Positions 2,308 to 26,341 of a stretch of DNA of 26,341 bases are shown here, one piece after another. The first letter of the stretch is position 1; each line of letters begins with the position of its first letter. The position numbers and the translations under genes were made by a program. The stretch lies in assembly GCA_965223665.1 (NCBI GenBank), contig CBDCXH010000004.1, positions 1 through 26,341 of the forward strand, given 5' to 3'. A model generated the notes under the pieces. That model made no database searches. It was not told the origin of the DNA and saw only the letters and a list, made by a program, of their open reading frames with translations. This stretch comes from Nitrospinaceae bacterium (GTDB taxonomy: Bacteria; Nitrospinota; Nitrospinia; Nitrospinales; Nitrospinaceae).

Positions 2308-2495
2308 TGATTAAGTAAATTGAAAAACAAGTGGATTAAGGGAAAGATTTGATTTTATTTTAATATTTCTAATTTGCATAGATAAATAATTAAAATAAGT
2401 TTCCAAACTATGACAAAAGAGAAAAAGTTAGATTTTGATGATCTAAATCAAAAAATATTTATAGCTTGATTTGACGAAAACCTTTGATTCAAATT

Positions 2496-5985: not shown

Positions 5986-8900
5986 TTAGTATGTCATTCC
6001 CTTTAGAAGTCCATTCGAATCAAAATTAAAATTTTCTTGGACCACTCCATTCCGAATGTGAGCTATTTTGTCTTTGTCCCGTTTAATAACCCAATGTTCT
6101 CCATCGGCACGTTTAACTTCTTGTATGTTACCTTCAGAATCGTTATCAAATGTATCTGCTCTTTGATTACTATCTTCAAGTTTTACTAAGCTGCCATTTT
6201 CATAGGTATACTTTTGTTTAAACTTACCCTTTCGATTATTTATCGACCTCAATTCTCCTTTAGTGCCATAAGTAAATCGAATATCCTTTTCACCTGATCG
6301 GATTTTCTTAACCCTATTGTTTTTGTCATAGTGGTAAGACATTGTGGTAGAGTTTGATGAATCGCCAATGACCTCTTTTATTAATTGACCCTTTTCAAAA
6401 AAACGTTTCAACTCAACTAAACCTTCAGAAACCATTTTGTTGAGTTCCCCACTCTCGTTTTCATATTCAAAAGAACTTCTGATTTGTCCATTTGTCCCAT
6501 TATTACCGGTAAAATTGATTTTGATTAGATTGAAACTTTTGTTAAAAACCAATTCGGTCGTTTTATATTTTGTTTCTGTTTTTTCCATCCATTGATTGGT
6601 TTGAACAACTCCATTTTCAATAAGATTTCCATAAGTTTTTAGAAGTACAACTTTTTCACCATTGCGGATTCCTTTCAACTGACCCAACTCATCAAATATT
6701 AATGAGCGTTTTTTGCCTTCCTCATCAATCACTTCAATTTCTTGTTGGTCTTGCGAAAACTGGAGAGTTGTTTTCTTTCCATAGGAAGTTTGATGGTTTA
6801 TGGTTTTTAACATCCCGGAATCATAATATTCATAGCTGGATTGATTGCCGAAAGAATCAGACTGCTTCAATAATTTCCCCCCGATATCATAATGTTCCTG
6901 GCATTGTCATTTCGCCAAGAGTTTTAGTCGCAACCATGTGAGATCCTTTCTGTTGAATTTCGGTTGTCATCGTACCCCAATGTTTATTGTTTTCCTGGAT
7001 GACACGACCCAAATCATCATATTCCACGGAGGATATCTGTTCCCCATTATGCTGAATGGTAATTAATTGGTGTTTTGAGTTATATGAATATTCAGTGATC
7101 TTCTCTCCATGGGTGATTTTGGCAAGGTCTCCTTGTGTATTGTATTGATAAATAAACAATCCTTTTTCCGTTTCAGCATGCGTCACGCGATTCAAGGCAT
7201 CATAGGAAAAAGTGATTTTATGATTGGGTTTACCCTCAATTAACATTTGAATGCTTGCCAACCGATAGGAATCATCGTATTTATACGTATAGGTTTGAGA
7301 CTCGAATTCTTTTTGGATCAGGTTTCCCTTTGCATTAAACATTAGGACGGTTCCATTCCTATATTCCACTCGATTCTCATTTTTTGAAGTATTAGGTTTA
7401 AAAGAACGAATCCCCTGATTTTTTGGAATTCGGTAACTTATTCCCTCTTCTTTTTGTTCAACGGGAAAAGTTACGTTGTTCAAACCGAAGGGATGAACCA
7501 AGCGATAGGAGTGGTTAGCCAACTTTTCGCCTCCCGCATTATTGAGTAGGGGGGATAAAATTAAATAGGGAAGATCCCATTGCCAAGAAAATCCAAACGG
7601 CCCGGGAGAATTATGAAATGAAGAATAAGATCGCGAAATCAAACCTAACTCTTGGTCATTAAGAAGTTTTGCTCCAAAAGGCCGGGTTTGGGAAGTGGGA
7701 AGCGCCACCACTCTTTTTTTTCTTGCTTTCCCCGTTGGTAAACATTCCGGTTTCCACTTTGGCAGAAAGAGGAACAGCCTGAGTTGCGTTTTTCAAATAT
7801 TTTTTTATTTTTGTAGGATCTTCTTTGTAGAGTTTTACAGTCAGGTCGTTTCCTCCAAAAATGGAAATCCCTTTAGGCCAAGGATCTTTAGCAGTGAAAG
7901 AAGGTGTGCCTGTTTCAGTCTCATAAAAGGTTTCAAAATCCTTAAGCCAATCCAAATTAAGATTCACTTTTCTTAGTTTTAGCCATTTGGCTAGTGCCAC
8001 TAAATTGGCAAGAGATTTTACCTTTCTGAAAACAGGAAATTGTTCTGCATATTTGTCATAGTATTCTGTGAAGTGCCCAGCAAAGTATTCCGCTTTTTTA
8101 TCAATGTGATTTTTTCCCGCTGGGATCAATTTCCCTGTTTCATCGCTCCATCTCATAGTTTGAGTTTTTACGCGAATTTTTGTGTCTGTAAATGCAATGG
8201 AGTTCCCATCTTCTGTGAGTTGTACTACCACTCTGACAGGCTCCAACCAAAACCTTGAAAATAATTTCTTATCATGGTTCCCACCCATTTCGGTATATTC
8301 TAACTTTATTAAGTTGTGATAACCTTCTATGTCAGCGGAGACTGGTTGACGAGTGACATTATCCTCGCCCATGCTCAAAGCCTTCATCAGGCGATCCGAT
8401 TCCAAAAGGAGGTATCCGAAGTGTGTATTTTCCACTCCCCCAAAAAACTTGATCTCCATGCAATTTAAGGGAAGTTCTTTCCTCTGGTTTTTAACTTTCT
8501 TTTTACAATTCTCTGGATCCAAACCTTTGATATCCGCTTTCCCATGAGGGTTTTTGGGATTAGGATCAATGGTTACTCCAGGTTCGTGCAAATAATTACC
8601 AAACACGGTACGAAATGCTGTCGCTAAATGGTCCAAACGAACTGAAGATAAGGATCCTGTTTTAGAATCCGGACCAATGAAAAGAAGCCGCTGGCTATTC
8701 GGATCAAATGTGACGGTTTCAACTTCTCCGAGTTTGCCCAAAACCTCTGCAACCTTGTCTAAATAGACTCCGCCTACGTTGGGGCGTTGGTTTTTAAAAC
8801 TCGATAAATTTTTATAAGCGTAATATCCTCCTTTAAAACCTTTTTCTATTACTTTTCCTGCTTTCGATAGTTGGCCCCAATGGTTAGCAAAGGCAGCTCG

Positions 8901-11243
8901 AACAAAATGAAACTTAGCTGCATAGGGTTTGGTAGCTCTATGAAAATTCAACAAGGTTTTATTAATATGAAATTTTTCCGATTTTAATAAAGCTGAAAAA
9001 ATCTTCTGGCCAGCTCCTTTGTAATCTTTTTTCTAATAATTTGACTACAGCTTGACCGCCATTTAGGCCAATTTTAAAGGCTTCAGAAAGCTTTGAAATT
9101 TTTGAAAAGGTACTTTTGGACCTAACTCCATATTTTTGAAGCCATTTGAATTTTGGAAAGCGAATTGTAGAAAGGTTCCATGCTATGTCTGCAAGAGATT
9201 GGCCGTCATTAAAGTAGGTTCCAGGCAACCTTCCTCCTAATAAATCAAGCCCCGTGGCTTTCCAGCCTTTTCCTGACAAGATGGCTTTTTCTGATTGCTC
9301 CGAATACCATTGCTTTAAATCAGAAAAATCTCCTCCCCATCCAAATCTTAATAGATCATAGCCTGTTGCCTTCAATCCATTTCCCGATTCAATCGCTTGC
9401 TGTGACCGTTCTTTTAACCAATCATTTATCACAGAAGAATCCCCGCCTATTTGAAAATTTAACTCTTCAAATAAGAGCGCTCCCAATACATTTCCTGATT
9501 GGATGGCTTGTTCGGATTTCATCGAATACCATTCGCTAGCCGTGGTGGTGTTGAGCAAATCCCTGAGTCCGGAAAAAGCGGACTCAAAAAAGTAAGATGT
9601 GTATTGTCTGAACAAACCGGGTTTGTCAATAAAGTTCACAGGGGCATTGCCCACATAGTTGTAGCGGTTTTGTTTTCCTTCATCCATGAATTGATGCAGT
9701 ACCGGGTCTTTGGATAAAAACCGGCCTATATATGGATCATAATACCTGGCCCGCAAATATACTTTGCCGCTATCATCTTGTTCTTCTCCAGTGAATCCAA
9801 ACCGCACTCTAGGAATGCGTTTCACCGGAACACCGAAAGGCGTGTACTCGCCAACACCAATTAATTTTCCGGATGCATCGATAGCGCCACGGATGGATCC
9901 TAAATGATCTTCAAAATAGAACACAGGATTTTGCTGTTGATTAATGTGACCCAGGGGTTGCCCTTCGGACCAAATATATTTTTGAGTTTTTCTTCCCTTG
10001 GCAACGAATACATTGGGAATCTCTTTCTATGAAATGAAGGTACTGGTGAGATCCATTTTTTCCGTTAGATTTTACCCGCCAACCCAAAGCATTGTATTGA
10101 TATTGGGTGTTATCATCCTCGTTGCAATTCATCTTTAACATTGAAGGTAAAAGACGAACCTAAAACATGGGTTACATTGCCCGCCGGGTCATGTTTCACC
10201 GGTTGGTCATTAATAGTAATGAAGTTGATCCGTATCATTGTATGAAGCTTTTAAGTGGCCAGATGGACTGGTGGATTGGATCCGGTTGCCAAAAATATCA
10301 TACTTGTATTGATACAACCTGCCATCGGAATACCGGGCATTCAGTAATTGACCATACTTGTCGTACTCAAACTGAATTTTGAAGTTGCCGTCAGGGCGTC
10401 ATCTCCTGAATGGTTTTTAGTTGACCCGAATCCTCATATTCGTATTTAAATTCGAATAGGACCCTGTTGTTGGGAGCCACATGTTGAATCAATAGGGGTC
10501 GACCTTCTTCATTATAGGTAAACTGACTGAACGCTCCGTTAGGATACACCCGTTGCTTGAACCGGCGGTTGTAATCATTGCTGATTTTTAAATTCACCAA
10601 CAGGCGTTTGAATAGAAACCGGATTACCAAATAAATCGCGGGTGTATTTTAAAAAATGGTTTCCTTGCTGCCATTGGATGGAAGAGATTTTTCCATTTTC
10701 TGTATGAGCATAATGGATGACATCTCCACCCGGGTAGGTAATAGCTTTTTAAATTACCGAAGTCATCTTTTTGTAATTGAGTGGTTCCTGTTTTATCTGT
10801 AAATTTTTCAGGAAAACCCCAATCGTCAAATTCATAACTTTCTTCAAAATCACCATAGGAAACGGTGGAAGGAAAGGCCATTATCTTTATACAGGTAGGA
10901 TAATCCGCCTTTTACCAGGACCAAGGATGGATTGTAGACGGGATTGATCGTCATATTTAAAACGAATACGATCGCGTGGTGAGCCTGGGACTATTTTTTC
11001 GCTTTTCTGGTTAGCTTTTGAAGTTTTTTTGGATGCTTTTCTTTAAGTCCTAGATGTCTTGTTTTGCATTGATGTTTCTTTTAAGGTTTTTTTTGATCCT
11101 TGATAGTAGATGCTTCTTTTCCACAAGCCACGAGTAAAAATAAAAGAGAAATAAATACGATGCAGTATGATTTTGTCTTAGAAGAAAATTTTGAGCCGAA
11201 CATAAAAAAGGTCTCATTGGAATCACAATTATTTTCTGTCCAT
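5986..11243 (-). CDS. Giant Rhs/YD-repeat protein (~1,750 aa if repaired), split by multiple frameshifts; lipoprotein signal, Rhs core, DUF1598-like domain, second YD block
   Basis: Track ORFs 10624-10881, 10391-10630, 9941-10141, 8962-9924, 7659-8954, 6887-7711 and 5986-6870 join by single-base shifts (T6 at 9027-9032, T8 at 7714-7721, extra base near 6900). Core motifs DHLGSIR, YTPFG, FGFTGEEQD, YLRARYYDPYIGRFLSKDP and NRYNYVGNAPVNFIDKPGL. RBS GGAGGA before ATG 11243; alternative start ATG 11203. Confidence 0.8.
7750..8790 (-). other. DUF1598-like domain inside the Rhs reading frame
   Basis: VGGVYLD, PGVTIDP, FFGGVENTHFGYLLLESDRLMKALSMG, SRFWLEP, FAGHFTEYYD and LANLVALAKW resemble DUF1598 proteins (recalled, not searched). 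Confidence 0.6.
11120..11203 (-). other. Lipoprotein signal peptide of the Rhs protein
   Basis: MFGSKFSSKTKSYCIVFISLLFLLVA|CG: basic n-region, hydrophobic h-region and lipobox LVAC (Cys codon 11123-11125). Too short for the ORF track because a frameshift follows in an A run. Confidence 0.7.
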
Positions 11244-12608: not shown

Positions 12609-14483
12609 TTAGATTTTTTTTATGTCGCTTCCCAAAATGTCATCGGGAATTCCGTATTTTTTCATTTTGTCCAAAAAGGTTTGGCGACTTTTAATTCCTA
12701 AAATTTCACGTGCTTCATTTTTTGTTTTACTGCCTCTCAAAGCTTTCTCAATGCTTTCTTTTTCAGTTGGGATCTGAGATTTTAATGATTTATCCTTCCC
12801 ATCATTGGCATTAGGGTTTTTATCTTTTTTTACTTTTTTTAGAAATACCACTGATAAGTCTCGAAGCTGAATGATACCTCGACATTTACGGAATGCCTCC
12901 GAAACCACCGTCTCCAGTTCGCGAATATTACCCGGCCATGAATATTCCAGAAATAGCTTGATTACCTCGTTTGAAATTCCCCGGTTTTTAACAAACGTGT
13001 CTTCTAAAGCAACTTTATCTAAAAAGAAATGTGCTAATAAAGGAATATCTTTATTTCTTTCCCGGAGGGGGGGAATGACTAGAGGCTCTCCCAGACGATA
13101 ACTTAAGTCCTCTCTGAATTCTCCTGTTTCGATCTTTTTTTCAATGTCCTGGTTGGTCGCAGCTATCACATTCGTATTGAGGGTTCGGCCTTCTTTCTCG
13201 CCCATTCGAATCACAACTCGGAATTGAATCAATTGCAGTAATTTTAATTGAATTTTAATATCCAAATCTCCGATCTCATCAAAAAAAACACATCCATTTT
13301 TAGCCGCGTATTGTACTCGTCCATCTCTATCTCGATCTGCCATATTATGGGCACCTTTCCTCTCACCAAACAAGGTAGACTCTGCCGTGGTTTCGGGGAT
13401 TTGAGTACAAAAAACCACATTTTTCTCATTAAAATCTTTAAAGGAATGAGGGGTTTTATTATTTTTTTGTTCCCAAACTTGATAAAGATAATAGGCTATA
13501 AAGCTTTTTCCCACTCCAGTTTCTCCGCGCAGAAAAATATTTTTCGTTGTTTGTGCTTTAGTCTGCAACTGTTCATTAAATTTTGAATCGATAATCAGGT
13601 AGGGCCATTCGATGAAATCTGAACAACCCACAAGTGATTCGTCTTTATTGTCCCTATCAAGAAAATCTTCAATTTGTTTTCCTAATAATTTTAAAAAAAT
13701 AAATTCGTTTTCTTTTTCTTCAAACTTTTTCTGGGATTTCTTTTTTACAACCAAATAGTTTACAATTTTATCAGTTTTGTTTAGAGCCAGATAAAGTGTC
13801 CCATCCTCAATATGGTGATCATTTGCTAAAAGATTTTCTTTGATCTGGGTGCTAAAAGGAAGGTATCCAGAAGAATCAATTATTAAAGATTTTCTTTGAG
13901 GTAAACTTAAATCACCTTTGAAAATTTCAATTAGGATGCTTAATTTTTCGTTTAAGAGATTCTTGATTTTCAAGAGTATTTCTTGCTGGTTTAATCCATT
14001 CAAGTAAATCTCTATTTCTTCATATAAAATTCTCAATTCCTTAGGTAACTTTTTAATCAAAGAATTAGAAGAAGTTTTAACCTTGATTGGCCCAGTAAGT
14101 GAATTGTCTACATCTTTAAGTGGATATTTTTGATCTGTAAGTTCCGAAACATAATTTTTGCTGCTTGATAATTTGTCAAATAATGTTTCTATGCTTATTA
14201 TTTTTAAATCCAAATTCCCTATTTTAAATTTATCCTCCACCTCAAGAGTTTTTTGAAATATCTTTTGTTTCTTATATTCTATTCCATTAGTACTGCTGAG
14301 ATCCCTTAATATGTAGTCACCACTTGATTGTTGAAGGAATACTGCATGAAATCGAGATACTTTTTGGTCCAACAAACAAATATCATTGTATTTTGAGTTA
14401 CGGCCTAACCGAATTAATGGCTTGTCCAGTGGGAACCAACGATCTATCATTTTCTCTTTTTCAACCACCAAGACAATGTTCAT
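12609..14483 (-). CDS. FHA-domain sigma-54-dependent transcriptional activator (FHA, degenerate GAF-like region, AAA+, Fis-type HTH)
   Basis: FHA motifs LGRN, VSRFHA and DLSSTNG; Walker A GETGVGKS; ESTLFG..KGAHNMA; Walker B FFDEIGD; QLKLL, IAATN, FREDLSYRL, WPGNIREL; C-terminal HTH. RBS GGAGGA. Confidence 0.92.
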   Translation of the reverse strand: MNIVLVVEKEKMIDRWFPLDKPLIRLGRNSKYNDICLLDQKVSRFHAVFLQQSSGDYILRDLSSTNGIEYKKQKIFQKTLEVEDKFKIGNLDLKIISIETLFDKLSSSKNYVSELTDQKYPLKDVDNSLTGPIKVKTSSNSLIKKLPKELRILYEEIEIYLNGLNQQEILLKIKNLLNEKLSILIEIFKGDLSLPQRKSLIIDSSGYLPFSTQIKENLLANDHHIEDGTLYLALNKTDKIVNYLVVKKKSQKKFEEKENEFIFLKLLGKQIEDFLDRDNKDESLVGCSDFIEWPYLIIDSKFNEQLQTKAQTTKNIFLRGETGVGKSFIAYYLYQVWEQKNNKTPHSFKDFNEKNVVFCTQIPETTAESTLFGERKGAHNMADRDRDGRVQYAAKNGCVFFDEIGDLDIKIQLKLLQLIQFRVVIRMGEKEGRTLNTNVIAATNQDIEKKIETGEFREDLSYRLGEPLVIPPLRERNKDIPLLAHFFLDKVALEDTFVKNRGISNEVIKLFLEYSWPGNIRELETVVSEAFRKCRGIIQLRDLSVVFLKKVKKDKNPNANDGKDKSLKSQIPTEKESIEKALRGSKTKNEAREILGIKSRQTFLDKMKKYGIPDDILGSDIKKI

Positions 14484-18055: not shown

Positions 18056-20323
18056 TTACTCAGAGGATTGCATTTGCTGATTTATGGAATCGATATTTTT
18101 TTGCACTATCTCCGCCTGATGATCTAAGCTTAACTTATTAAAAATGGCTAACGCCTTCTCAAAATACGCAATGGCTTGGTCGAAATCTCCTTTGTATTTC
18201 CAAGTTAATCCCAGGTTGATCCAATTAAGGGCTACATCGGGATGGTCTGTACCAAAAGTTTTTATATTGCTATGAAGGGCCTTCTCAAAATACGCAATGG
18301 CCTTTTCGTAATCTCCTTTGTTTATCCAAGCCTCTCCAAGGTTGTTCCAATTAAGGGCTACATTAGGATGCTCTTCACCGAAAGTCTTTATATTGCTGGC
18401 CAACGCTTTCTCGAAATACTCAATGGCTATGTCGTACTCGCCCTTGCAACTCCAAGAGACTCCCAAGTTGATCCAATTAAGGGCGACGTTGGGATGGTCT
18501 GCACCAAAAGTATTTATATTGCTGTGAAGAGATTTCTCGTGGTATTCAATGGCCTTGTCAAAATCTCCTTTGTTATCCCAAGCTGCTCCCAGGTTATTCC
18601 AAATTCGGGCGATATTGGGATGATCTTCACCGAAGGTTTTTAGATCACTGTGAAGCGCTTTCTTGAAGTATTCAATGGCTTGGTCGTAATCTCCTTTGTG
18701 TCTCCAAGCCGTTCCCAGGTTGTTCCAATTAATGGCGACATCGGGATGGTCTGCACCAAAAGTATTTATATTACTATGAAGGGCTTTCTCAAAATAAGCA
18801 ATTGCCTTTTCGTAATCTCCTTTTTTATTCCAAACCAAACCCAGGTTGTTCCAATTAATGGCGACATTAGGATGGCCTTCACCAAAAGTTTTTATATTGC
18901 TATGAAGGGCTTTCTCAAAATTCGCAATGGCCTTTTCGTAATCTCCTTTTTGTCTCCAAGCTTCTCCCAAGTTGTTCCATTTAAGAGCGACGTCGGGATG
19001 GTCTGCACCAAAAGTTTTTATATTACTGTGAAGAGATTTCTCGTAGTATTTAATGGCTTGGTCATAATCTCCTTTGATATCCCAAATTACTCCTAGGTTG
19101 TTCCAACTGGTGGCGACCTTAGGGTGATCTTCACCTAAGGTTTTCAGATCACTGTGAAGCGCTTTCTCGAAGTATTCAATGGCTTGGTTGGAATCTCCTT
19201 TGTCAGCCCAAGCCAATCCCAGGTTGTTCCAACGGTCGGCGATATTGGGGTGATCTTCACCAAAGGTTTTTAGATCACTGTGAAGCGCTTTCTTTAAGTA
19301 TTCAATGGCCTGGTCGTAATTTCCTTTATGTCTCCAAGCCAATCCCAGGTTGTTCCAATTAAGGGCAACATCGGGATGATCTGCACCAAAAGTTTTTATA
19401 TTGCTATGAAGGGCTTTCTCAAAATAAGCAATGGCTTGTTCGTAATCTCCTTTGTGTCTCCAAGTTTCTCCCAAGTTGTCCCAACGGATGGCAACGTTGG
19501 GGTGCTCTTCGTCAAAGTTTTTCAGATCACTGTGAAGCGCTTTCTTAAAGTATTCAATGGCCTGGTCGTAATCTCCTTTGTGTTTCCAAGCTAATCCCAG
19601 GTTGTTCCAATAGGTGGCGAAGTTAGGATGCCCTTCATCAATTGTTTGGAGATCGCTGGACAAGGCTTTTTCATAACAATTTATGGCATGATCGTATTTG
19701 CCTAAAGTAGCATAAATAAATCCAGTATCATTTAAATAAGTTCCAATCTCCGGTGCCAGTTGCGCCGCCCGTTCATATTGCTTCAAGGCCTCACGGTAAT
19801 TCACGGCATCCTCGGCAATTTTTCCTCTTCTATAATGAACCCGAGCCTGTTCCTCAATCAAAGACAACCGCTCTTTGTTTTCTTCCAATTCTTTAAATAA
19901 TTGATCCGCTTCCGACAAATCCCCACTGGCTAAAGCTTCTTCGGCTTGTTGCATTTGAAAAGGAGAAAACTGGTCTTTAAATTTCTGTAGATCCGAATTG
20001 GTGGCTTGTAGTTGTTCCAAGTGATCTTTATAGGATTGTTCCAGGTTGGCCTGTTTGCCTTCAATGGCACTTAACTCCAGTTCTAATTCCTGAATCCGAT
20101 CCTGATCTTTCCCACGCTCTTCAGCCAACTCGGCGCGGATCTCGGCTTCCCGTTTTTGCAAAAACGCATGGTGTTCTTCCAGGGTGATACCAATGACAAA
20201 TTTGTCACCTTCAACCTTATCGCCTATTACTTTGTCACCCGCCACATTATCGCCCATGACGGTGCCCTGGGTTTTGGGGTTGGCATTTTGAGGTTCTTGA
20301 TCTTTAGGGTTAGGTTCGGGCAT
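18056..20323 (-). CDS. TPR protein with ~12 tandem 42-aa repeats (kinesin-light-chain-like), N-terminal GDxV repeat and coiled coil
   Basis: FG.DHP.VA..WNNLG.AW..KGDY..AI.YFEKAL repeats at 126-nt period. Start ATG 20323 (track uses 20335). No NTPase motif seen. Confidence 0.92.
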   Translation of the reverse strand: MPEPNPKDQEPQNANPKTQGTVMGDNVAGDKVIGDKVEGDKFVIGITLEEHHAFLQKREAEIRAELAEERGKDQDRIQELELELSAIEGKQANLEQSYKDHLEQLQATNSDLQKFKDQFSPFQMQQAEEALASGDLSEADQLFKELEENKERLSLIEEQARVHYRRGKIAEDAVNYREALKQYERAAQLAPEIGTYLNDTGFIYATLGKYDHAINCYEKALSSDLQTIDEGHPNFATYWNNLGLAWKHKGDYDQAIEYFKKALHSDLKNFDEEHPNVAIRWDNLGETWRHKGDYEQAIAYFEKALHSNIKTFGADHPDVALNWNNLGLAWRHKGNYDQAIEYLKKALHSDLKTFGEDHPNIADRWNNLGLAWADKGDSNQAIEYFEKALHSDLKTLGEDHPKVATSWNNLGVIWDIKGDYDQAIKYYEKSLHSNIKTFGADHPDVALKWNNLGEAWRQKGDYEKAIANFEKALHSNIKTFGEGHPNVAINWNNLGLVWNKKGDYEKAIAYFEKALHSNINTFGADHPDVAINWNNLGTAWRHKGDYDQAIEYFKKALHSDLKTFGEDHPNIARIWNNLGAAWDNKGDFDKAIEYHEKSLHSNINTFGADHPNVALNWINLGVSWSCKGEYDIAIEYFEKALASNIKTFGEEHPNVALNWNNLGEAWINKGDYEKAIAYFEKALHSNIKTFGTDHPDVALNWINLGLTWKYKGDFDQAIAYFEKALAIFNKLSLDHQAEIVQKNIDSINQQMQSSE
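18150..19700 (-). repeat. Tandem 126-bp repeats coding the 42-aa TPR units
   Basis: Recurring GGATGGTCTGCACCAAAAG / GTTGTTCCAATTAA / CGTAATCTCCTTT blocks. Confidence 0.9.
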
Positions 20324-20492
20324 AGAATTTACCACTGAGAATTAACAGGTTTATAAGCCCATATAATATAGAACGGAAATTAACCCAAATCCTACTCCTT
20401 TCGGTTTGCGGATGCAAGCCCAAGCCGGGGATGAAAAAAAGGCAGGGTAGGTAGGTTCAATAAATAAGGGAAGAAAGGAAAATCTTTATAAA

Positions 20493-21666: not shown

Positions 21667-22170
21667 CTAGTAGGGCCAAATAGCCGATTTGGGATATCCA
21701 TTAGCATCTTTATATTTTAGTAAAGTAATATCTTTTTTTCCGTTCCTCAAGTAGAGAAGAGTTGCGTTTCGTTCTGCTTCTGGAAACCCTGCAATATCTT
21801 TTTGAATAACCCAATAAGCATCTTCAATAAAAATATTTAAGTTTCTGTAATCAGAATAAAAGGTATTTATACCTGAAATTGTTTGGCCAAAAGTTGCCCC
21901 CGTATTCAGCTCTTTTCTATTCATAAGATTATAAAAACTTTTAGAATCATAGCTTTTGCTAACATTATTAAACTTAGAATCCATCATTTGTTGCCTATCT
22001 AATATTTTTACCCCATTGTAAACCCCAAGGTTAAAACCAATTGCAAATCCTATTTTATTCTGTTTTGTTAATTTGTTCCACGAATGCCCATCCCATTTTT
22101 CTTCCTCACAAATACCTGAGGTTATCCCTAAAAAAAAGAAAACGAAAACTCCAGCTATTATTTTCTTCAT
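21667..22170 (-). CDS. Hypothetical secreted protein
   Basis: Start ATG 22170 after GGAGG; signal peptide MKKIIAGVFVFFFLGITSGIC; WDGHSWNKL..K.GF..GF..G motif. Confidence 0.75.
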   Translation of the reverse strand: MKKIIAGVFVFFFLGITSGICEEEKWDGHSWNKLTKQNKIGFAIGFNLGVYNGVKILDRQQMMDSKFNNVSKSYDSKSFYNLMNRKELNTGATFGQTISGINTFYSDYRNLNIFIEDAYWVIQKDIAGFPEAERNATLLYLRNGKKDITLLKYKDANGYPKSAIWPY

Positions 22171-22272
22171 CCTCCACCCCATTCCTCGAAGAAGTTGATT
22201 TAAAGGAATCATTCTTTCGTCAATTTAAGATCAATATTTTTCCCCTACTCGGTGCTTTCAGGTTTTTATTAA

Positions 22273-22998
22273 TTATTCCCCGTTTTGATTTTTCTTACTT
22301 TCTGTAATGTCCTGCCTTAATGCTAATATTTTATTTCTTCTCTCTTCGCGGATCTGCGGTATCACGTAAATTTCATTTAAGATTTCTTGGATGGTGGAAA
22401 GAAAAACTCTGAGATGCGTTGATTGCCATCCATCGTAGGAATTTTCATGCACCTTGTCACTTGTTGCTTGTTGAATGGTCAAGAGTGTATCAAAATATTC
22501 AGGAACCACATCTGGTTTCTTTTCCTTTAAGGATTTAATTCTATCTTCGTAGTTTTCTCCACTTGCACCCTCTTTTATGGCAAGTTCATAGATGATCTTT
22601 CTCGCACAAGCGGAAGCCCCCGTAAGGAAATTACCCTGTAAACAACCTTCGGCTTCGGAAAATAGTTCTCTTAATATCTTTGGTATTCGTTCATCTAATG
22701 TAAAAAAAGAGGTAGGAACGGAGTAAAAAAATTTCTGGTCTAAATCGCAACCTTCCAGATCACAAAATTGGAATTGACCGCCATTATGTTCAGTCGGAAT
22801 ATTCTCATAAGATAAGTGTAAAGATTTTTTTAGACAGGACTGGCATATCACAAAAAAAACATAACATTTTTTGCTGTTTGTCCAATCAAAAACATGCGAG
22901 CTCTTTAATATATACCTCACATGATTTCTTTTGCAAAAGGGGCAATTGTAAACATAATTGTCTATAAAATACTTATTATCCAAATGAGATTGGTCCAT
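22273..22998 (-). CDS. Zn-ribbon plus DUF4145 (HEPN-like) protein
   Basis: CPFC...CQSC, then IPKILRELFSEAEGC...ASACARKIIYEL...DRIKSL...SDKVH, the usual DUF4145 layout. Confidence 0.7.
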   Translation of the reverse strand: MDQSHLDNKYFIDNYVYNCPFCKRNHVRYILKSSHVFDWTNSKKCYVFFVICQSCLKKSLHLSYENIPTEHNGGQFQFCDLEGCDLDQKFFYSVPTSFFTLDERIPKILRELFSEAEGCLQGNFLTGASACARKIIYELAIKEGASGENYEDRIKSLKEKKPDVVPEYFDTLLTIQQATSDKVHENSYDGWQSTHLRVFLSTIQEILNEIYVIPQIREERRNKILALRQDITESKKNQNGE

Positions 22999-23261
22999 CT
23001 CTTTCTCCCAATAAAATTAGACCTTTTCCCCCCAATCAATTTATCATAAGCAATCCAATGGAATTGGCTTATTTAGGCATAAGGAATTAAGGTTGTCAAG
23101 GTGGGAGGTTGCGAAAAATAATCGTGCGTGGAAGGTTATGCAAATAAAGGGGTTGAGCGAATTAGCCTTTACTTTTCAAAGTGGTAGCTTGATTTTTTTC
23201 GAGAATTGGTCTTTAATGAATTTGGATAAAAAATCGGCCCTGCATCTTGTATTGAAGTTCG

Positions 23262-23289
23262 TTGACAAATCAAAATGTAGTGTTAATCT
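23262..23289 (+). promoter_or_regulatory. Sigma-70 promoter pointing at the structured leader and tRNA
   Basis: TTGACA-N16-TAATCT with extended -10 TG at 23281-23282. Confidence 0.6.
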
Positions 23290-23319
23290 ACACAAGTATA
23301 AAGAGGGATTTCGTTCTCG

Positions 23320-23440
23320 AGGGGCCAAAAACAAAGGCTCCACGGTGATGCGACACCGTAGAGCCGAGGTCCAATAAAAAATTTTTTTTGACGATAGCTT
23401 GAGGACCAGAGTGGGGTTCTACACCCCCGTTTTCGTTTTA
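23320..23440 (+). ncRNA. Candidate structured RNA upstream of the tRNA
   Basis: Hairpin GGCTC-C-ACGGTG-ATGCGA-CACCGT-A-GAGCC (23336-23365) and T-arm-like GGGG-TTCTACA-CCCC (23413-23427); GC-rich in AT-rich surroundings. Confidence 0.4.
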
Positions 23441-23472
23441 GAGAGTATCATAGAAAGAAAGGGATTTTCAAT

Positions 23473-23501
23473 AAAAAACGGAGGCCCCCGAAAGGGCCTC
23501 C
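23473..23501 (-). terminator. Intrinsic terminator-like hairpin (U tract on the minus strand)
   Basis: GGAGGCCC-CCGAAA-GGGCCTCC (23480-23501) preceded by A6 on the plus strand. Confidence 0.6.
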
Positions 23502-23513
23502 ATCAAAGATTAG

Positions 23514-23586
23514 GGCACCGTAGCCAAAGGGCTAAGGCAACTTCCTTGCACGGAGTGGATTCCCGGTTCGAATCCGGGCGGTGCCT
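23514..23586 (+). tRNA. tRNA with anticodon UGC (Ala) but tRNA-Cys-like body; CCA not encoded
   Basis: Acceptor GGCACCG/CGGTGCC plus U73; D-arm GCC-AAAGGGCTAA-GGC; anticodon arm ACTTC-CTTGCAC-GGAGT (TGC at 23547-23549); T-arm CCCGG-TTCGAAT-CCGGG. Confidence 0.9.
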
Positions 23587-23810
23587 TTACCTTTTTTGAT
23601 TTTTGGGTTATTTAAATTTTATACTTCCATTGACCTTCAAACAAGAATTTTATTCCTTCATTTAAAACTAAGGAGTATTGCATTAAAAGTCAACGATTTA
23701 TAAGGAGCGTGTCTACCAAAGGGCCTATTTTATAATTATTTTCCCTAAAAAATAAAGGCTTTTATTGCCCAACCCTTATAGGTGGGGTGATTTGAGATTT
23801 TTTAATGCAG

Positions 23811-24263
23811 TTATTTGGGAAGGGGGTCAAGTCTAGGAATATTAGAAACCAAAAAGCATAATAAAGCAATGCTTCTTCGATATCTTTCACCTAAAGAACC
23901 CTCATTTGGTAATATAACTTCCTCAAAGGTTTCTAAAAGCTCTGATATAAGCTTCTCAACTTTTTGGGAATTTAAATTGTGAGCATATTCATTTCGGATT
24001 TTGTTTAATTTTTTTACACCAGCCCAAAATTGGTCATAACCAGTTTTATAAAAAAGTGCCTTGTAAATTTTGACTAACTGATGAAATTGCAATTCTGCAT
24101 CCTCTAAATATTTTGCGTGGTCAATTTCGCTTCTTAAAACTTTATAAATTTCTCTTTCAATTAAAAGATGACCTATTAATGTAAGAAGCTCTAGCTGATC
24201 TCCTTCGGGGAGAATTGAATTAATCTCCTCTATCAAATCATTTTCTTTTTCCCCAATATTCAT
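23811..24263 (-). CDS. HEPN-domain protein (MtlR-like type) with intact RxxxxH motif
   Basis: GHLLIE...FHQLVKI...KKLNKIRNEYAH; all-helical, 150 aa. Confidence 0.7.
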   Translation of the reverse strand: MNIGEKENDLIEEINSILPEGDQLELLTLIGHLLIEREIYKVLRSEIDHAKYLEDAELQFHQLVKIYKALFYKTGYDQFWAGVKKLNKIRNEYAHNLNSQKVEKLISELLETFEEVILPNEGSLGERYRRSIALLCFLVSNIPRLDPLPK

Positions 24264-24326
24264 CGAAACTTTCCCTCTTTACCAAGCATTTAATTCAGTT
24301 TGCCAAATTGCGCGAATTGCAAAAAT

Positions 24327-24473
24327 TTATTCTCTTGAATATTTTAATTTATTTAAAATTTCCTTTTGCAGTTCTACTAAAGTTTCAAGTCGGATATTAA
24401 TTTCTCTCACCTGCGGATAAATAAGTCCAACGAAAATAAATATTAAAATCTCCCAAATAGGTAAATTATCCAT
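24327..24473 (-). CDS. 48-aa single-TM small protein (not in ORF track)
   Basis: MDNLPIWEILIFIFVGLIYPQVREINIRLETLVELQKEILNKLKYSRE*, with GGGAG upstream. Confidence 0.5.
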   Translation of the reverse strand: MDNLPIWEILIFIFVGLIYPQVREINIRLETLVELQKEILNKLKYSRE

Positions 24474-24593
24474 GAGCTTCCACTCCCATAATATTTAGAT
24501 AGCAAAGACGATGCGCTTGTTTACTATATCAACCGGTTAGTGCACCCATTTTCTTGGAAATTAAATTTAGCACAAAACTAATCACAACTCTGG

Positions 24594-24620
24594 AATAAGG
24601 GTAGAATTTCTACCCTTATT
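24594..24620. repeat. Perfect 13-bp inverted repeat downstream of the NACHT gene (terminator or operator)
   Basis: AATAAGGGTAGAA-T-TTCTACCCTTATT. Confidence 0.55.
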
Positions 24621-24648
24621 TTCTTTCCATCCATAAAAAAATTCCCCC

Positions 24649-26341
24649 TCAATTTTTTCGGTAGGCTTGGCCGATTTCCGCATCAAACTCCGGCTTTAAC
24701 GGATCCATAACTTGGGGATGGGTTGTTTCCAAATCATTAAATAGATCTCGGGAAAGGGAGATGTTCTTCTTAATGAGTAAGGAAAAGAATTTTCCCAGAT
24801 TCCCATTAGGGTTGGGGGATTCCACCTGGTTCAGCAAAAATAGTTCCAGCATGGATTCCCAATCCCGTGTAACTTTGGGGGACGGGTTAGTTAATTCGGC
24901 CTCCCAATTGGAAACAAAGTATTTCATGGCCAGGCTCGCTCGGATCAAATCATGCTTAAATAAATAATGGGTCCCTCGTTTAATCAAAAATTTTTTTTCC
25001 AATAGCTGGTTCTGTATTTCTTTCAATAAGGGTTGTTCCGGACAATCAAAGGAAGGGTCGGGTTTGGCCAGCATTTCAAAAGCACGTTCATAAAGAATTC
25101 TGGAGAATTGCTGTTTGTCCTCATCCTGATTCCAGTTTTCCAATACCGGTTCAAACAACTTTTTATATAAAAGGTCCTTAGAGGGAGGCACTTCCTTTTT
25201 TTCTCTAGCAATTTGAATGGCAAACTCCAGTTCCTGCGGATTTTTATAAATGGTGTCATAATTTGAGGGAAAATATTTTATAACTGCTTCCACTTTTTCC
25301 TGATCGGTAGAAGTTTCCTCACCTGTGGGTTTTTCTTTTATGTGGGTATCCCGGTTTTCCTCGGCCAGCACTTTCTTTTGTATAAACTCTTTAATAGTTT
25401 CTTTGTCCAGTTGTGCCATCTCTTGATGTTCTAAATTCAAATCTTCATAAATAACCTGGGAACTGATGCAAATAAAATTAGATTTCCCATTAAAATTGAT
25501 AAAGTGTTTTACACTATCCCTTTTGTTATCTTCAATTTCATTCAATCCATCAATTAAAAATAAAAATCCGCCATCTTTAATGAACTCTATAACCAAATCC
25601 TTATCAGTGATTCCTCCATATGCTTGAAGTTGGTCATAAATAAGATCATTTAAATTTTTTTGCTCTCCAGAAAAAGCTTTTAAAGGAACCAACACCGGGA
25701 TGGATTTATTTAGTTTCTTTGAATATTTTGGATAAGAGAAGTGATGACAGAGGTATTTAAAAAAGGTTGTTTTCCCACCCCAGATTTACCCAAAAGCAAA
25801 AACTTGCGATTCTGTTTTATGGAATCCAAAAAAGCACTGGGATGGAATTTGTCTGAAGGAATCACAAAATCTTGTTCCCAACAGGAAAACTCTTCGTCCT
25901 TTTGTATTGTTTTTAAATAAGGTTTGAATAAATAACGTTGAAGCGCGGGAAACAAGCTGACAAATAAAGGAATCAAACCAAAAGAACCAATTCCCCTAAA
26001 CCTCTTATTCATCACTAGCTTTTGAAAAGTGGCAGAATATGGGGACAAGAGAAATGCCAGACAAGAAAAAAGTAGCCATGAGAAACTAATTATTAACCCA
26101 ATTATAATAGGTAATACAGGGCCAGAAGGGAGAATGAAAACCCCTAGCTTGCCTCCATGAATATCGATTGAATTTCCAAGTTCGTCTTTAACTTTATAAT
26201 AAAGTGTCTTTCTTCCCCATGAAAAAGGTTTTTGGAACTCTCCAATTGGATTAAGTGGACCGTCTAAAAATCTCTGTTGAAGTTTTTCTTTAGTGTCCTC
26301 TATGATAATTTCAAATCCACCAGGAAGAATATTGTTCTCCA
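24649..26341 (-). CDS. Membrane-anchored NACHT-family STAND NTPase, 5' end outside the window, two frameshifts
   Basis: Adding one A at 25770-25773 restores LLLGKSGVGKTTFFKYL (Walker A) and joins to IPVLVPLK...FLFLIDGLNE (Walker B)...YLFKHDLIR. Hydrophobic helices at ~25930-26130; open frame continues to the window edge. Confidence 0.8.

What the first reader, a model, noticed from the sequence alone, without database searches (positions are those of the whole stretch)
23514..23586. tRNA with Ala anticodon but Cys-type identity elements
Seen: a complete cloverleaf whose 5-bp stem and 7-nt loop (CUUGCAC) place UGC at 34-36. Known: AlaRS needs G3:U70 and A73, whereas this tRNA has G1:C72, G2:C71, C3:G70, U73 and a GCCAA..GG..AAGGC D-arm, typical of bacterial tRNA-Cys. 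GCA sits one base out of register (35-37). Inferred options: a mistranslating tRNA (compare the Ala-anticodon tRNA-ProA of Streptomyces), a non-ribosomal aminoacyl donor, a nuclease decoy or a pseudo-tRNA. It appears to have its own promoter, and all stems are intact.
Basis: partly seen in the sequence, partly recalled or inferred. Interest (0 to 1): 0.8.

Follow-up and report, generated by a model that had tools for sequence, protein, structure and literature searches.

The report
Register-shifted cysteine tRNA on accessory contig
A small accessory piece of bacterial DNA carries an intact transfer RNA built like a cysteine tRNA whose cysteine anticodon sits one base out of place, so it reads as alanine; it belongs to a rare family found in several phyla whose members may be loaded with cysteine yet stay out of, or corrupt, normal decoding.

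Summary
Window 23514-23586(+) is a complete 7/5 cloverleaf (ARAGORN Ala-UGC; Rfam tRNA 58.9 bits). It has a tRNA-Cys body (G1:C72, G2:C71, C3:G70, U73, Cys-type D-arm) and a 7-nt loop, CUUGCAC, that puts GCA at 35-37. It is neither a decayed copy nor a one-off. Pattern scans found 14 such tRNAs in species genomes and 51 in metagenome contigs, from Acidobacteriota, Planctomycetota, Binatia and Bacteroidota. In 61 distinct sequences 98% of stem cells pair, 15 of 20 pairs change on both sides, the 15:48 tertiary pair covaries perfectly, and none has G3:U70. Position 34 varies. The tRNA is an extra copy: the host keeps canonical tRNA-Cys, two tRNA-Ala and a single CysRS. It was probably acquired horizontally: 85-86% identical to metagenomic members, 66% to host tRNA-Cys, and found in 1 of 120 genomes of its phylum. 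The closest known case is the His-bodied tRNA with GUG at 35-37 (Mukai et al. 2017), which HisRS charged but which did not decode. My best reading is a cysteine-chargeable tRNA-Cys paralogue that decodes poorly or not at all. Ala-to-Cys mistranslation is the main rival. Neither charging nor expression was tested. The claimed own promoter was not found.

The parts
23514..23586 (+). tRNA gene, 73 nt, 7/5 cloverleaf, tRNA-Cys-type body with U73. CCA is not encoded; a T-rich trailer follows.
   Evidence: ARAGORN; Rfam RF00005 58.9 bits; acceptor 7/7 pairs, C3:G70, U73; comparison with host tRNA-Cys and tRNA-Ala
23545..23551 (+). Anticodon loop CUUGCAC: U33, UGC at 34-36 (the formal Ala anticodon), GCA at 35-37 (the Cys anticodon displaced by one nucleotide).
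   Evidence: The register is supported across the family by covariation of all 5 anticodon-stem pairs.
23477..23504 (-). GC-rich 12-bp hairpin 10 nt upstream of the tRNA. It scores as an intrinsic terminator on the minus strand. On the plus strand it would be a leader hairpin of the tRNA precursor.
   Evidence: A structured 60 nt upstream is common in the family (mean z -1.86; 23 of 62 below -2, against 4 of 59 in a control segment).
23811..24263 (-). Context only: a 150-aa orphan ORF downstream of the tRNA on the opposite strand. It is all-helical and has an Rx4H motif (RNEYAH). HEPN-like only by weak sub-threshold hits.
   Evidence: HEPN_Cthe2314 E 0.01, HEPN_RiboL-PSP E 0.015, both under cut-off; CARF_HEPN 0.0018, Csm6 0.0034; no relatives; model pLDDT 44.8
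22273..22998 (-). Context only: a 241-aa ORF upstream with a zinc-ribbon-like N-terminus and a weak match to the PADLOC defence protein PD-T7-4.
   Evidence: E 9.4e-5, 20 bits; no Pfam or NCBIfam hit

Best explanation
This is a genuine, structurally intact tRNA gene of tRNA-Cys descent. The GCA triplet that CysRS recognises has been moved one nucleotide 3' within a normal 7-nt loop, to positions 35-37. With U33 in place, the ribosomal frame of the loop therefore shows UGC (Ala). It belongs to a rare family of such 'register-shifted' tRNA-Cys paralogues found in several phyla. These occur as extra genes beside a canonical tRNA-Cys, often next to other irregular tRNAs and transposases. Here the gene reached a 26-kb accessory contig by horizontal transfer. 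Most likely mechanism (inferred, not shown): the host's single CysRS still loads it with cysteine, using U73, the acceptor stem, the Cys-type core and the displaced GCA, as HisRS does with the analogous His-type tRNAs. The resulting Cys-tRNA then takes little or no part in decoding. It would be a chargeable but essentially non-translating tRNA carried by mobile DNA, and what it does after charging is unknown. Any leakage onto the ribosome would put Cys at GCN (Ala) codons.
For: Shown: an intact cloverleaf with the Cys body and shifted GCA. Family: of 107 stretches from the U34 pattern scans, 14 are Cys-bodied (7/7 acceptor pairs, U73, no G3:U70), 89 are true tRNA-Ala and 4 are chance. Of 58 metagenome contigs from the N34+U73 scan, 51 have at least 6 of 7 acceptor pairs. 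Selection on structure, in 61 distinct sequences: 98.0% of cells paired, against 51.5-53.9% when slid by 1; 15 of 20 pairs changed on both sides; all 5 anticodon-stem pairs covary in the shifted register; 3:70 is CG 51, GC 7, UA 2, UG 1, never G:U. The Levitt pair is G15:C48 in 53 and A15:U48 in 8, never mixed. The window and its nearest relative L153 differ by both-side changes at 4:69, 28:42 and 51:63 with no disruption. Position 34 is free where the pattern left it free: U 30, C 10, G 3, A 2 of 45. With the loop left unconstrained (251 Acidobacteriota genomes, 150 of 185 matches listed), I read about 144 canonical loops, 2 shifted, 1 other and 3 non-tRNA. It is an extra copy: the host has canonical Cys(GCA), Ala(UGC) and Ala(GGC), and canonical tRNA-Cys is also present in 3 of 5 other carrier genomes checked. 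There is one CysRS and no second copy. Horizontal origin: 86% and 85% identical to L153 and L160, 66% to host tRNA-Cys, and found in 1 of 120 genomes of its own phylum. Precedent: His-bodied tRNAs with GUG at 35-37 were charged by E. coli HisRS but did not insert His at ACC (PMC5389517, section 16 read in full). U73 and GCA are the major Cys determinants, and U73 alone suffices for minihelices (PMC9976931, passages).
Against: Charging was not tested, for this tRNA or any family member. CysRS reads all three anticodon bases (recalled from the E. coli CysRS-tRNA structure), and a one-base displacement may cost orders of magnitude in activity. The 'no decoding' step rests on one heterologous test of a different (His-type) tRNA. 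The same D-arm with a UGC loop appears to work as an ordinary Ala decoder in Caldilineaceae once G3:U70 and A73 are present. So the scaffold is not intrinsically unable to decode, which favours the mistranslation rival. In the window there is no detected promoter, no partner tRNA, no encoded CCA and no RNA data. GCA at 35-37 and U73 were imposed by my search patterns, so their invariance in the alignment is not evidence.
Confidence: 0.45

Rival explanations
1. A mistranslating tRNA. CysRS charges it with cysteine, EF-Tu delivers it, and its UGC anticodon reads GCA/GCG (perhaps GCN), placing Cys at Ala codons at a low or regulated level.
For: It has every general feature of an elongator tRNA: 7/5 structure, U8, A14, G18G19, R15:Y48, U33, a 7-nt loop, A37 and a TTCGAAT T-loop. 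Bodies with the same D-arm and a UGC loop seem to act as the housekeeping tRNA-Ala(UGC) in Caldilineaceae, where 0 of 2 complete chromosomes show a standard-bodied one with my pattern. Natural mistranslating tRNAs exist: tRNAProX (PMC11415595 and PMC10404621, passages). Every N34 variant still gives an Ala anticodon.
Against: The only tested analogue (His-type) was charged but did not decode. There is no dedicated synthetase, unlike tRNAProX/ProRSx. A34 occurs in 2 of 45, which is unusual for bacterial decoders (recalled). Family members sit stably in large chromosomal contigs, which argues against strong proteome-wide toxicity. Neither expression nor Ala-to-Cys peptides were tested.
Confidence: 0.28
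2. A working RNA with a non-ribosomal role tied to its neighbours: a decoy, substrate or antidote for an RNase of the HEPN type, or a dedicated aminoacyl donor for a tRNA-dependent enzyme.
For: The ORF at 23811-24263(-) has an Rx4H motif and several weak HEPN-family hits. The ORF at 22273-22998(-) weakly matches the defence protein PD-T7-4. The only minus-strand terminators found lie beyond the tRNA (23504-23477 and 23365-23336). A transcript of the downstream ORF would therefore run antisense across the tRNA (inference). Mukai et al. report irregular tRNAs near toxin-antitoxin genes.
Against: All HEPN hits are below the curated cut-offs. The protein has no relatives (1 hit, itself, of 53 candidates), and its model is unusable (pLDDT 44.8). 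No protein family recurs beside family members. Of 107 nearest ORFs, the commonest families are transposases (4 + 3) and histidine kinases (3), with no tRNA-dependent transferase or aaRS among the 25 of 27 families shown. No window ORF resembles any neighbour of the 14 genome-derived members at E 1e-5.
Confidence: 0.12
3. An inert passenger: a recently transferred copy that is not expressed or processed in this host and is on its way to decay.
For: No promoter-like site directly upstream. No partner tRNA, although 15 of 65 relatives have one 2-49 nt downstream. CCA is not encoded. The gene is a GC-rich island (62%) in a 36.5% GC contig. No RNA run is available.
Against: All four stems and the tertiary pairs are intact, and differences from the nearest relatives are compensated. 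About a dozen host tRNAs also lack encoded CCA, and the genome has two CCA-adding-type nucleotidyltransferase hits. The promoter scan covers only sigma-70-type consensus.
Confidence: 0.1
4. A true tRNA-Ala charged by AlaRS.
For: UGC anticodon. The loop CUUGCAC is identical to that of the host's tRNA-Ala(UGC).
Against: C3:G70 in place of G3:U70, and U73 in place of A73. 0 of 61 family members have G3:U70. The loop identity is shared with L153 from another source, and I would expect it in about 6% of family members from the family's own base frequencies (my arithmetic). It is therefore not an adaptation to this host.
Confidence: 0.03

Closest known systems
G-1 'tRNA1' irregular tRNAs of acidobacterial tRNA polycistrons (Mukai et al. 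2017, NAR, PMC5389517)
   Same: The design principle is the same. The body carries the identity elements of one amino acid, and that amino acid's anticodon triplet sits at 35-37 instead of 34-36, so the formal anticodon belongs to another amino acid (His body, GGU, GUG at 35-37). They are found with allo-tRNA-like genes and near transposon or toxin-antitoxin genes. 15 of 65 relatives of the window tRNA are followed within 2-49 nt by such an irregular tRNA.
   Different: The amino acid differs (Cys, not His), as does the synthetase class (class I CysRS, not class II HisRS). The window copy has a 7/5 structure and stands alone, with no polycistron. The main text of the paper describes no Cys-type. 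Its Supplementary Figure S6, which I could not open, may show one.
tRNAProX (tRNAProA/N/T) with ProRSx of Streptomyces and Kitasatospora
   Same: A bacterial tRNA whose body identity and anticodon disagree. An Ala anticodon occurs in tRNAProA.
   Different: tRNAProX has A33, an A15-A48 pair and a dedicated ProRSx gene (PMC11415595, passages). The window tRNA has U33 and A15:U48, and its host has only one CysRS. In tRNAProX the cognate anticodon is not retained out of register.
selC* tRNA-Cys with CysRS* (Desulfobacterales and others)
   Same: An extra tRNA-Cys species with U73 that CysRS-type enzymes may charge despite a non-GCA anticodon.
   Different: selC* has an 8/4 structure with a bulge, a long variable arm, a GCA or UCA anticodon and, in some lineages, an anticodon-blind CysRS* (PMC7609411 passages). 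None of these features is present here.
Canonical bacterial tRNA-Cys
   Same: G1:C72, G2:C71, C3:G70, U73, a GCCAA...AAGGC D-arm, A13/A22 and R15:Y48.
   Different: GCA lies at 35-37, not 34-36. The window tRNA is 66% identical to the host's own tRNA-Cys and 85-86% identical to shifted members elsewhere.
allo-tRNA (8/4 or 9/3 tRNAs, Mukai et al. 2017)
   Same: It occupies the same genomic neighbourhoods in relatives. Allo-tRNAs are also proposed to be missense suppressors or non-translating RNAs.
   Different: The window tRNA has a 7/5 structure, a 5-nt variable loop and no Ser identity.

Membership tests
Canonical tRNA-Cys (CysRS substrate, UGY decoder) | Discriminator U73 | tested here: met
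   T at 23586 follows the 7-bp acceptor stem
Canonical tRNA-Cys (CysRS substrate, UGY decoder) | GCA at positions 34-36 | tested here: not met
   UGC at 34-36 and GCA at 35-37. The register is supported by stem covariation.
Canonical tRNA-Cys (CysRS substrate, UGY decoder) | Cys-type acceptor and core (G1:C72, G2:C71, C3:G70; GCCAA...AAGGC D-arm; R15:Y48) | tested here: met
Canonical tRNA-Cys (CysRS substrate, UGY decoder) | Aminoacylated by CysRS | not testable with these tools
   Needs an in vitro or in vivo charging assay. The host has one CysRS.
tRNA-Ala (AlaRS substrate) | G3:U70 wobble pair | tested here: not met
   C3:G70; 0 of 61 family members have G3:U70
tRNA-Ala (AlaRS substrate) | A73 | tested here: not met
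   U73
tRNA-Ala (AlaRS substrate) | NGC anticodon | tested here: met
   UGC
Register-shifted irregular tRNAs (His-type tRNA1 of Mukai et al. 2017) | The anticodon triplet of the body's amino acid lies at 35-37 of a 7-nt loop | tested here: met
   GCA at 35-37 on a Cys body. The description of the His-type was read.
Register-shifted irregular tRNAs (His-type tRNA1 of Mukai et al. 2017) | Lies in a polycistron with allo-tRNA-like or other irregular tRNAs | tested here: not met
   There is no second tRNA in the window. The feature is met in 15 of 65 relatives.
Register-shifted irregular tRNAs (His-type tRNA1 of Mukai et al. 2017) | Near toxin-antitoxin or transposon genes | tested here: inconclusive
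   In the window there are only weak HEPN-like and PD-T7-4-like hits. Transposases account for 7 of 107 ORFs flanking relatives.
Register-shifted irregular tRNAs (His-type tRNA1 of Mukai et al. 2017) | Charged by the cognate synthetase but not used in decoding | not testable with these tools
   Needs charging and reporter assays
tRNAProX / ProRSx mistranslation system | Dedicated synthetase paralogue, A33, A15-A48 | tested here: not met
   One CysRS only; U33 and A15:U48
allo-tRNA / selC* tRNA-Cys | 8/4 or 9/3 acceptor/T arrangement and a long variable arm | tested here: not met
   7-bp acceptor stem, 5-bp T stem, 5-nt variable loop

The most novel reading that the evidence does not exclude
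Mobile DNA in at least five bacterial phyla carries a class of tRNA in which the synthetase-recognised triplet is slid one base out of the ribosomal frame. Here this uncouples cysteine charging from cysteine decoding. In its boldest form, the window tRNA delivers Cys at alanine codons as a programmed or conditional recoding or toxic device. Together with the His-type, this would show that 'anticodon register shift' is a general natural route to identity-anticodon uncoupling.
Probability: 0.28. Interest if true: 0.85.

Novelty: new variant of a known kind. Interest (0 to 1): 0.66.

Why it matters
If CysRS does charge these tRNAs, they form a second, independent case, with a different amino acid and a different synthetase class, of the design seen once in His-type tRNAs. 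That would make the register shift a rule and no longer a curiosity. It would also pose a sharp question: what use is a charged tRNA that the ribosome reads as another amino acid, or does not read at all? The family gives about 60 natural variants with clear covariation, which is enough to design charging and decoding tests. It also offers possible scaffolds for orthogonal or mistranslating tRNAs. For annotation, such genes are at present called tRNA-Ala by anticodon, and that call is probably wrong.

Tried and rejected
- BLAST of 23400-23700 against plasmid records found no match.
- A search of 41 relatives gave only the window itself, a canonical Gly-Cys tRNA pair (G032) and a 30-nt piece (G035).
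- Earlier-findings look-ups by place (near), words and sequence returned nothing.
- Homologues of the 150-aa neighbour: only itself, of 53 candidates.
- Its AlphaFold model has mean pLDDT 44.8, so I made no fold search. Atlas look-alikes are unnamed clusters, with DUF4145 in 18% and MtlR in 24% of members of two of them; these are leads only.
- Sequencing runs: no RNA holder is listed. The three runs are contigs from one study. X3 laid nothing. Expression, ends and strand could not be assessed.
- My guess that the host is an anammox planctomycete was dropped: there is no hydrazine-synthase domain.
- No conserved protein partner turned up.
- No second tRNA-like element lies at 22000-25000, even at E up to 5.
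- The contig ends do not overlap, so circularity, and therefore 'plasmid', is not shown.
- I first read the identity of the loop with the host's tRNA-Ala loop as a sign of a designed chimera. I dropped this because L153 has the same loop and the match is not rare within the family.
- I considered reading GCA at 35-37 as the anticodon through a U-turn at U34. I rejected it because a third of members have C, G or A at 34.

Full report
**1. The object**

The window is the whole of contig C5 (26,341 bp, 36.5% GC) of a six-contig, 4.35-Mb assembly whose main contig is 4.24 Mb at 38.2% GC. ARAGORN finds one tRNA in it, at 23513-23587(+), called Ala(tgc). Rfam's tRNA model matches 23514-23586 end to end at 58.9 bits, E 1.4e-10.

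The cloverleaf has these parts:
- a 7-bp acceptor stem;
- a 3-bp D stem closed by A13/A22;
- a 5-bp anticodon stem with one U-G pair;
- a 7-nt loop, CUUGCAC;
- a 5-nt variable loop;
- a 5-bp T stem with a TTCGAAT loop.

With U33 in place the anticodon is UGC, and GCA occupies 35-37. A script read 7 of 7 acceptor pairs, C3:G70 and U73. CCA is not encoded.

**2. The body is Cys-type and the tRNA is an extra copy**

The chromosome has 43 tRNAs, including a canonical Cys(GCA), an Ala(UGC) next to Ile(GAU), and an Ala(GGC). Compared with the host's tRNA-Cys, the window tRNA has the same acceptor stem apart from one compensated pair, almost the same D-arm, and the same U73. Its anticodon arm is different. 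Both host tRNA-Ala genes have G3:U70 and A73. The genome has one CysRS (464 bits, in a 484-aa frame). The other hits to that Pfam family lie in 647-943-aa frames and are probably other class I synthetases.

**3. It is not an assembly slip**

Contigs of two runs from one sample, which may be the sample the window was assembled from, cover 23300-23800 (X1) and 23468-23768 (X2) with no differing letter and no indel. This is presence in contigs of low depth. It is not independent confirmation, and no RNA run is listed.

**4. It is one of a family**

I scanned for a Cys-type D-arm, a loop of the form YUUGCAN, and a T-loop. This gave 98 stretches in the species-genome collection and 9 in viral contigs. 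Of these 107 stretches:

| Class | Count | Sources |
|---|---|---|
| Genuine-looking tRNA-Ala (G3:U70, A73) | 89 | Caldilineaceae, Blastocatellia and other Acidobacteriota, MAGs labelled Heliomicrobium, and all 9 viral hits |
| Chance matches without an acceptor stem | 4 | L029, L040, L057, L084 |
| Cys-bodied like the window (7/7 acceptor pairs, U73, C3:G70 or G3:C70) | 14 | see below |

The 14 Cys-bodied tRNAs are:
- Acidobacteriota: L018, L027, L037, L039, L052, L058, L063, L093;
- Planctomycetota: L051, L086, L089;
- Binatia: L068;
- an Ignavibacteriales MAG: L076;
- a Winogradskyella genome: L094.

A second pattern left position 34 free and required U73. It hit 58 metagenome contigs. Of these, 51 have at least 6 of 7 acceptor pairs, and 45 also have at least 4 of 5 anticodon-stem pairs. 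The same pattern hit one viral contig out of the whole viral collection.

**5. The family is under selection for a tRNA fold in the shifted register**

I aligned 61 distinct sequences. Of 62 distinct sequences I left out L115, whose extracted copy is cut at a contig end. On the window's cloverleaf:
- 98.0% of 1220 cells form standard pairs, against 51.5% and 53.9% with the partner slid by one column and 71.6% in shuffles.
- 15 of 20 pairs show changes on both sides.
- All 5 anticodon-stem pairs covary, with 92.5% paired.

I had filtered on the acceptor stem but not on the anticodon or T stems.

The tertiary Levitt pair is G15:C48 in 53 sequences and A15:U48 in 8, the window among them. It is never mixed. 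The 3:70 pair is C:G in 51, G:C in 7, U:A in 2 and U:G in 1. It is never G:U.

The invariance of GCA at 35-37, U33, U73, A13 and A22 was imposed by the patterns and is not evidence.

**6. What varies and what does not**

Where the pattern left position 34 free, it is U in 30, C in 10, G in 3 and A in 2 of 45. Every N-G-C anticodon means Ala, so the 'Ala anticodon' follows automatically from GCA standing at 35-37. L160 has the same anticodon stem as the window but G34.

For a less biased view I searched 251 Acidobacteriota genomes for the Cys-type D-arm plus U73, with the loop unconstrained. 174 genomes matched. Of the 150 matches listed (35 were not), I read by eye:
- about 144 with GCA at 34-36;
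- 2 with GCA at 35-37: G044, the centre I had chosen because it carries L058, and G303, whose loop is CCUGCAA with C33;
- 1 with a CUC loop;
- 3 that are not tRNA-like.

One canonical row comes from G276, a genome flagged as unpublished. On this evidence the shifted GCA is the only recurrent departure from the canonical loop on this body.

**7. The shifted tRNA is supplementary and mobile**

Canonical tRNA-Cys genes are also present in three of five carrier genomes checked (G041, G042, G045). The patterns found none in G043, and only a doubtful match in G044.

The window tRNA is 86% identical to L153 and 85% to L160 (both metagenome contigs). It is 78% identical to L089 and 77% to L086 (planctomycete MAGs). 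It is only 66% identical to its host's tRNA-Cys. Against L153 it differs by both-side changes at 4:69, 28:42 and 51:63 and by no disruptive change.

In the host's own phylum the pattern hits 1 of 120 genomes, G000 itself. None of 40 relatives has the locus. Earlier notes of this scan call the genome a marine Nitrospinaceae; I did not check that.

**8. Neighbours of the family**

In 15 of 65 non-window members, ARAGORN calls a second, odd tRNA 2-49 nt downstream on the same strand:
- 88-91-nt genes with a UAU anticodon (7 cases);
- a 90-nt 'Pro(agg)';
- an 89-nt 'Lys(ttt)';
- six small tRNAs of 66-75 nt with an 8-bp acceptor stem, a tiny D-arm and a UAU, UUA or CAU anticodon.

L137 and L159 carry three in a row. 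L153 has one 7 nt upstream with an 8-nt loop. This count is a lower bound, because contigs end and ARAGORN misses irregular tRNAs.

Of the 107 nearest flanking ORFs, 4 match DDE_Tnp_1, 3 match the IS1595 transposase and 3 match a histidine kinase. No synthetase or tRNA-dependent transferase is among the 25 of 27 families shown.

The window has no partner tRNA.

**9. Neighbours in the window**

- Upstream lies a 241-aa ORF (22273-22998, minus strand) with a weak match to the defence protein PD-T7-4 (E 9.4e-5).
- Downstream lies a 150-aa orphan ORF (23811-24263, minus strand) with an RNEYAH motif. It has concordant but sub-threshold hits to HEPN families. Its structure model is unusable.
- Further on, two ORFs (24649-26339, minus strand) carry P-loop and Walker-B-like motifs. 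I identified these by eye, and the labels are recalled.

The promoter scan finds nothing sigma-70-like directly upstream of the tRNA. The only minus-strand terminators in 22900-24400 lie just beyond the tRNA, at 23504-23477 and 23365-23336. A transcript of the 150-aa gene would therefore cross the tRNA in antisense (inference).

A structured segment in the 60 nt upstream is common in the family: mean z is -1.86, with 23 of 62 below -2, against 4 of 59 in a control segment. The shuffles were mononucleotide.

The lack of CCA is no bar. About a dozen host tRNAs lack it by a crude test, and the genome has two nucleotidyltransferase hits of the CCA-adding type.

**10. Comparison with what is known**

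Mukai et al. 2017 (PMC5389517; section 16 read in full, other passages by search) describe acidobacterial polycistrons of allo-tRNA-like and other irregular tRNAs near transposon and toxin-antitoxin genes. Two of these tRNAs have a His body (G-1), a Thr GGU anticodon and GUG at 35-37. E. coli HisRS charged them better than tRNA-His, yet they did not insert His at ACC. [quoted passage not shown]

The window tRNA is the same design for cysteine. U73 and GCA are the major Cys determinants, and U73 alone suffices for minihelices (PMC9976931, passages).

The main text of Mukai et al. names no Cys-type with an Ala anticodon. Nor did four full-text searches or the passages I read (27, 53, 74, 75).

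The window tRNA differs from the other known families as follows:
- tRNAProX has A33, A15-A48 and a dedicated ProRSx.

**11. Mechanism**

Shown:
- an intact tRNA of Cys descent with GCA displaced to 35-37;
- a conserved, covarying family;
- extra-copy status;
- foreign origin;
- one CysRS, and no AlaRS determinant.

Inferred:
- CysRS charges it through U73, the acceptor stem, the core and the displaced triplet.
- It then decodes poorly or not at all.

The alternative, Ala-to-Cys mistranslation, is strengthened by one observation. Bodies with the same D-arm and a UGC loop seem to serve as ordinary tRNA-Ala once they carry G3:U70 and A73. Two complete Caldilineaceae chromosomes show no standard-bodied tRNA-Ala(UGC) with my pattern. 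I put the non-decoding reading at 0.45 and mistranslation at 0.28.

**12. Verdict**

This is a real feature that is misnamed by its anticodon. It is a new, Cys-type variant of a kind known from a single His-type precedent, and it is documented here as a family found in several phyla. Its function remains untested.

Noticed in passing
L004-L110 (e.g. L009:6403-6475, L012:3164-3238, L103:8255-8327): 89 tRNA-Ala(UGC) genes with G3:U70 and A73 carry a Cys-type GCCAA...AAGGC D-arm in place of the usual Ala D-arm. They come from Caldilineaceae, Blastocatellia and other Acidobacteriota, MAGs labelled Heliomicrobium, and 9 viral contigs. Two complete Caldilineaceae chromosomes show no standard-bodied tRNA-Ala(UGC) with my pattern. 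This could mean that a Cys-derived body was recruited as tRNA-Ala.
   Followed up: partly
L012:2533-5668, L022:2500-7994, L091:6278-7954, L103:2004-8473: There are dense tRNA arrays of 35, 26, 13 and 13 genes. The two acidobacterial arrays each include a 90-nt 'Ile(tat)' gene of the allo-tRNA type, and L012 also has a tRNA with a 4-base 'aaaa' anticodon call.
   Followed up: no
L153:~112-186 on the minus strand (7 nt upstream of its shifted tRNA); L076, L118, L144, L156: Some relatives have an 8-nt anticodon loop (CUCGCAAA in L153's upstream tRNA; UUGGCAAA is possible in L156), or can be drawn with a 6-bp stem and a 6-nt loop (the Ignavibacteriales-type L076, L118, L144). These may be intermediates between the canonical and shifted loops, or quadruplet-type readers.
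   Followed up: no
window 23477-23504 and 23336-23365 (minus strand): Two strong minus-strand terminator-like hairpins lie just upstream of the plus-strand tRNA, and none lies between the tRNA and the minus-strand ORF at 23811-24263. That ORF's transcript would therefore contain the antisense of the tRNA.
   Followed up: partly
60 nt upstream of family members (62 loci): The upstream 60 nt are more structured than shuffled sequence (mean z -1.86; 23 of 62 below -2), unlike a control segment 200-260 nt upstream (4 of 59). A leader hairpin or an upstream terminator may belong to the unit.
   Followed up: partly
window 24649-25695 and 25710-26339 (minus strand): Two adjacent ORFs carry a P-loop (GKSGVGK) and a Walker-B-like LIDGLNE motif, as in NACHT/STAND NTPases. 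They look like one gene split by a stop or a frameshift, and the upstream ORF runs off the contig end. Pfam and NCBIfam give no significant hit.
   Followed up: partly
window 2484-4682(+), 5986-9924(-), 12609-14483(-), 18056-20335(-): The contig also encodes a Ser/Thr kinase fused to about ten TPR repeats, RHS-repeat ORFs with an RHS-associated core domain, a sigma-54 activator with an FHA domain, and a 759-aa TPR protein. No replication, partition or integrase gene was recognised.
   Followed up: partly
G296:C1:2944399-2944462 and G303:C1:2100464-2100527: One acidobacterial tRNA-like match with the Cys-type D-arm and a T at position 73 has a UUCUCAU loop (anticodon CUC). Another has the shifted GCA but C33 in place of U33 (loop CCUGCAA), so my YU-anchored patterns undercount the family.
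   Followed up: no
window 23601-23620, 23961-23980, 24342-24361: Three copies of a 20-nt AT-rich direct repeat (80% identity to the reference copy), spaced 360 and 381 nt apart downstream of the tRNA. This may be chance in AT-rich DNA.
   Followed up: no
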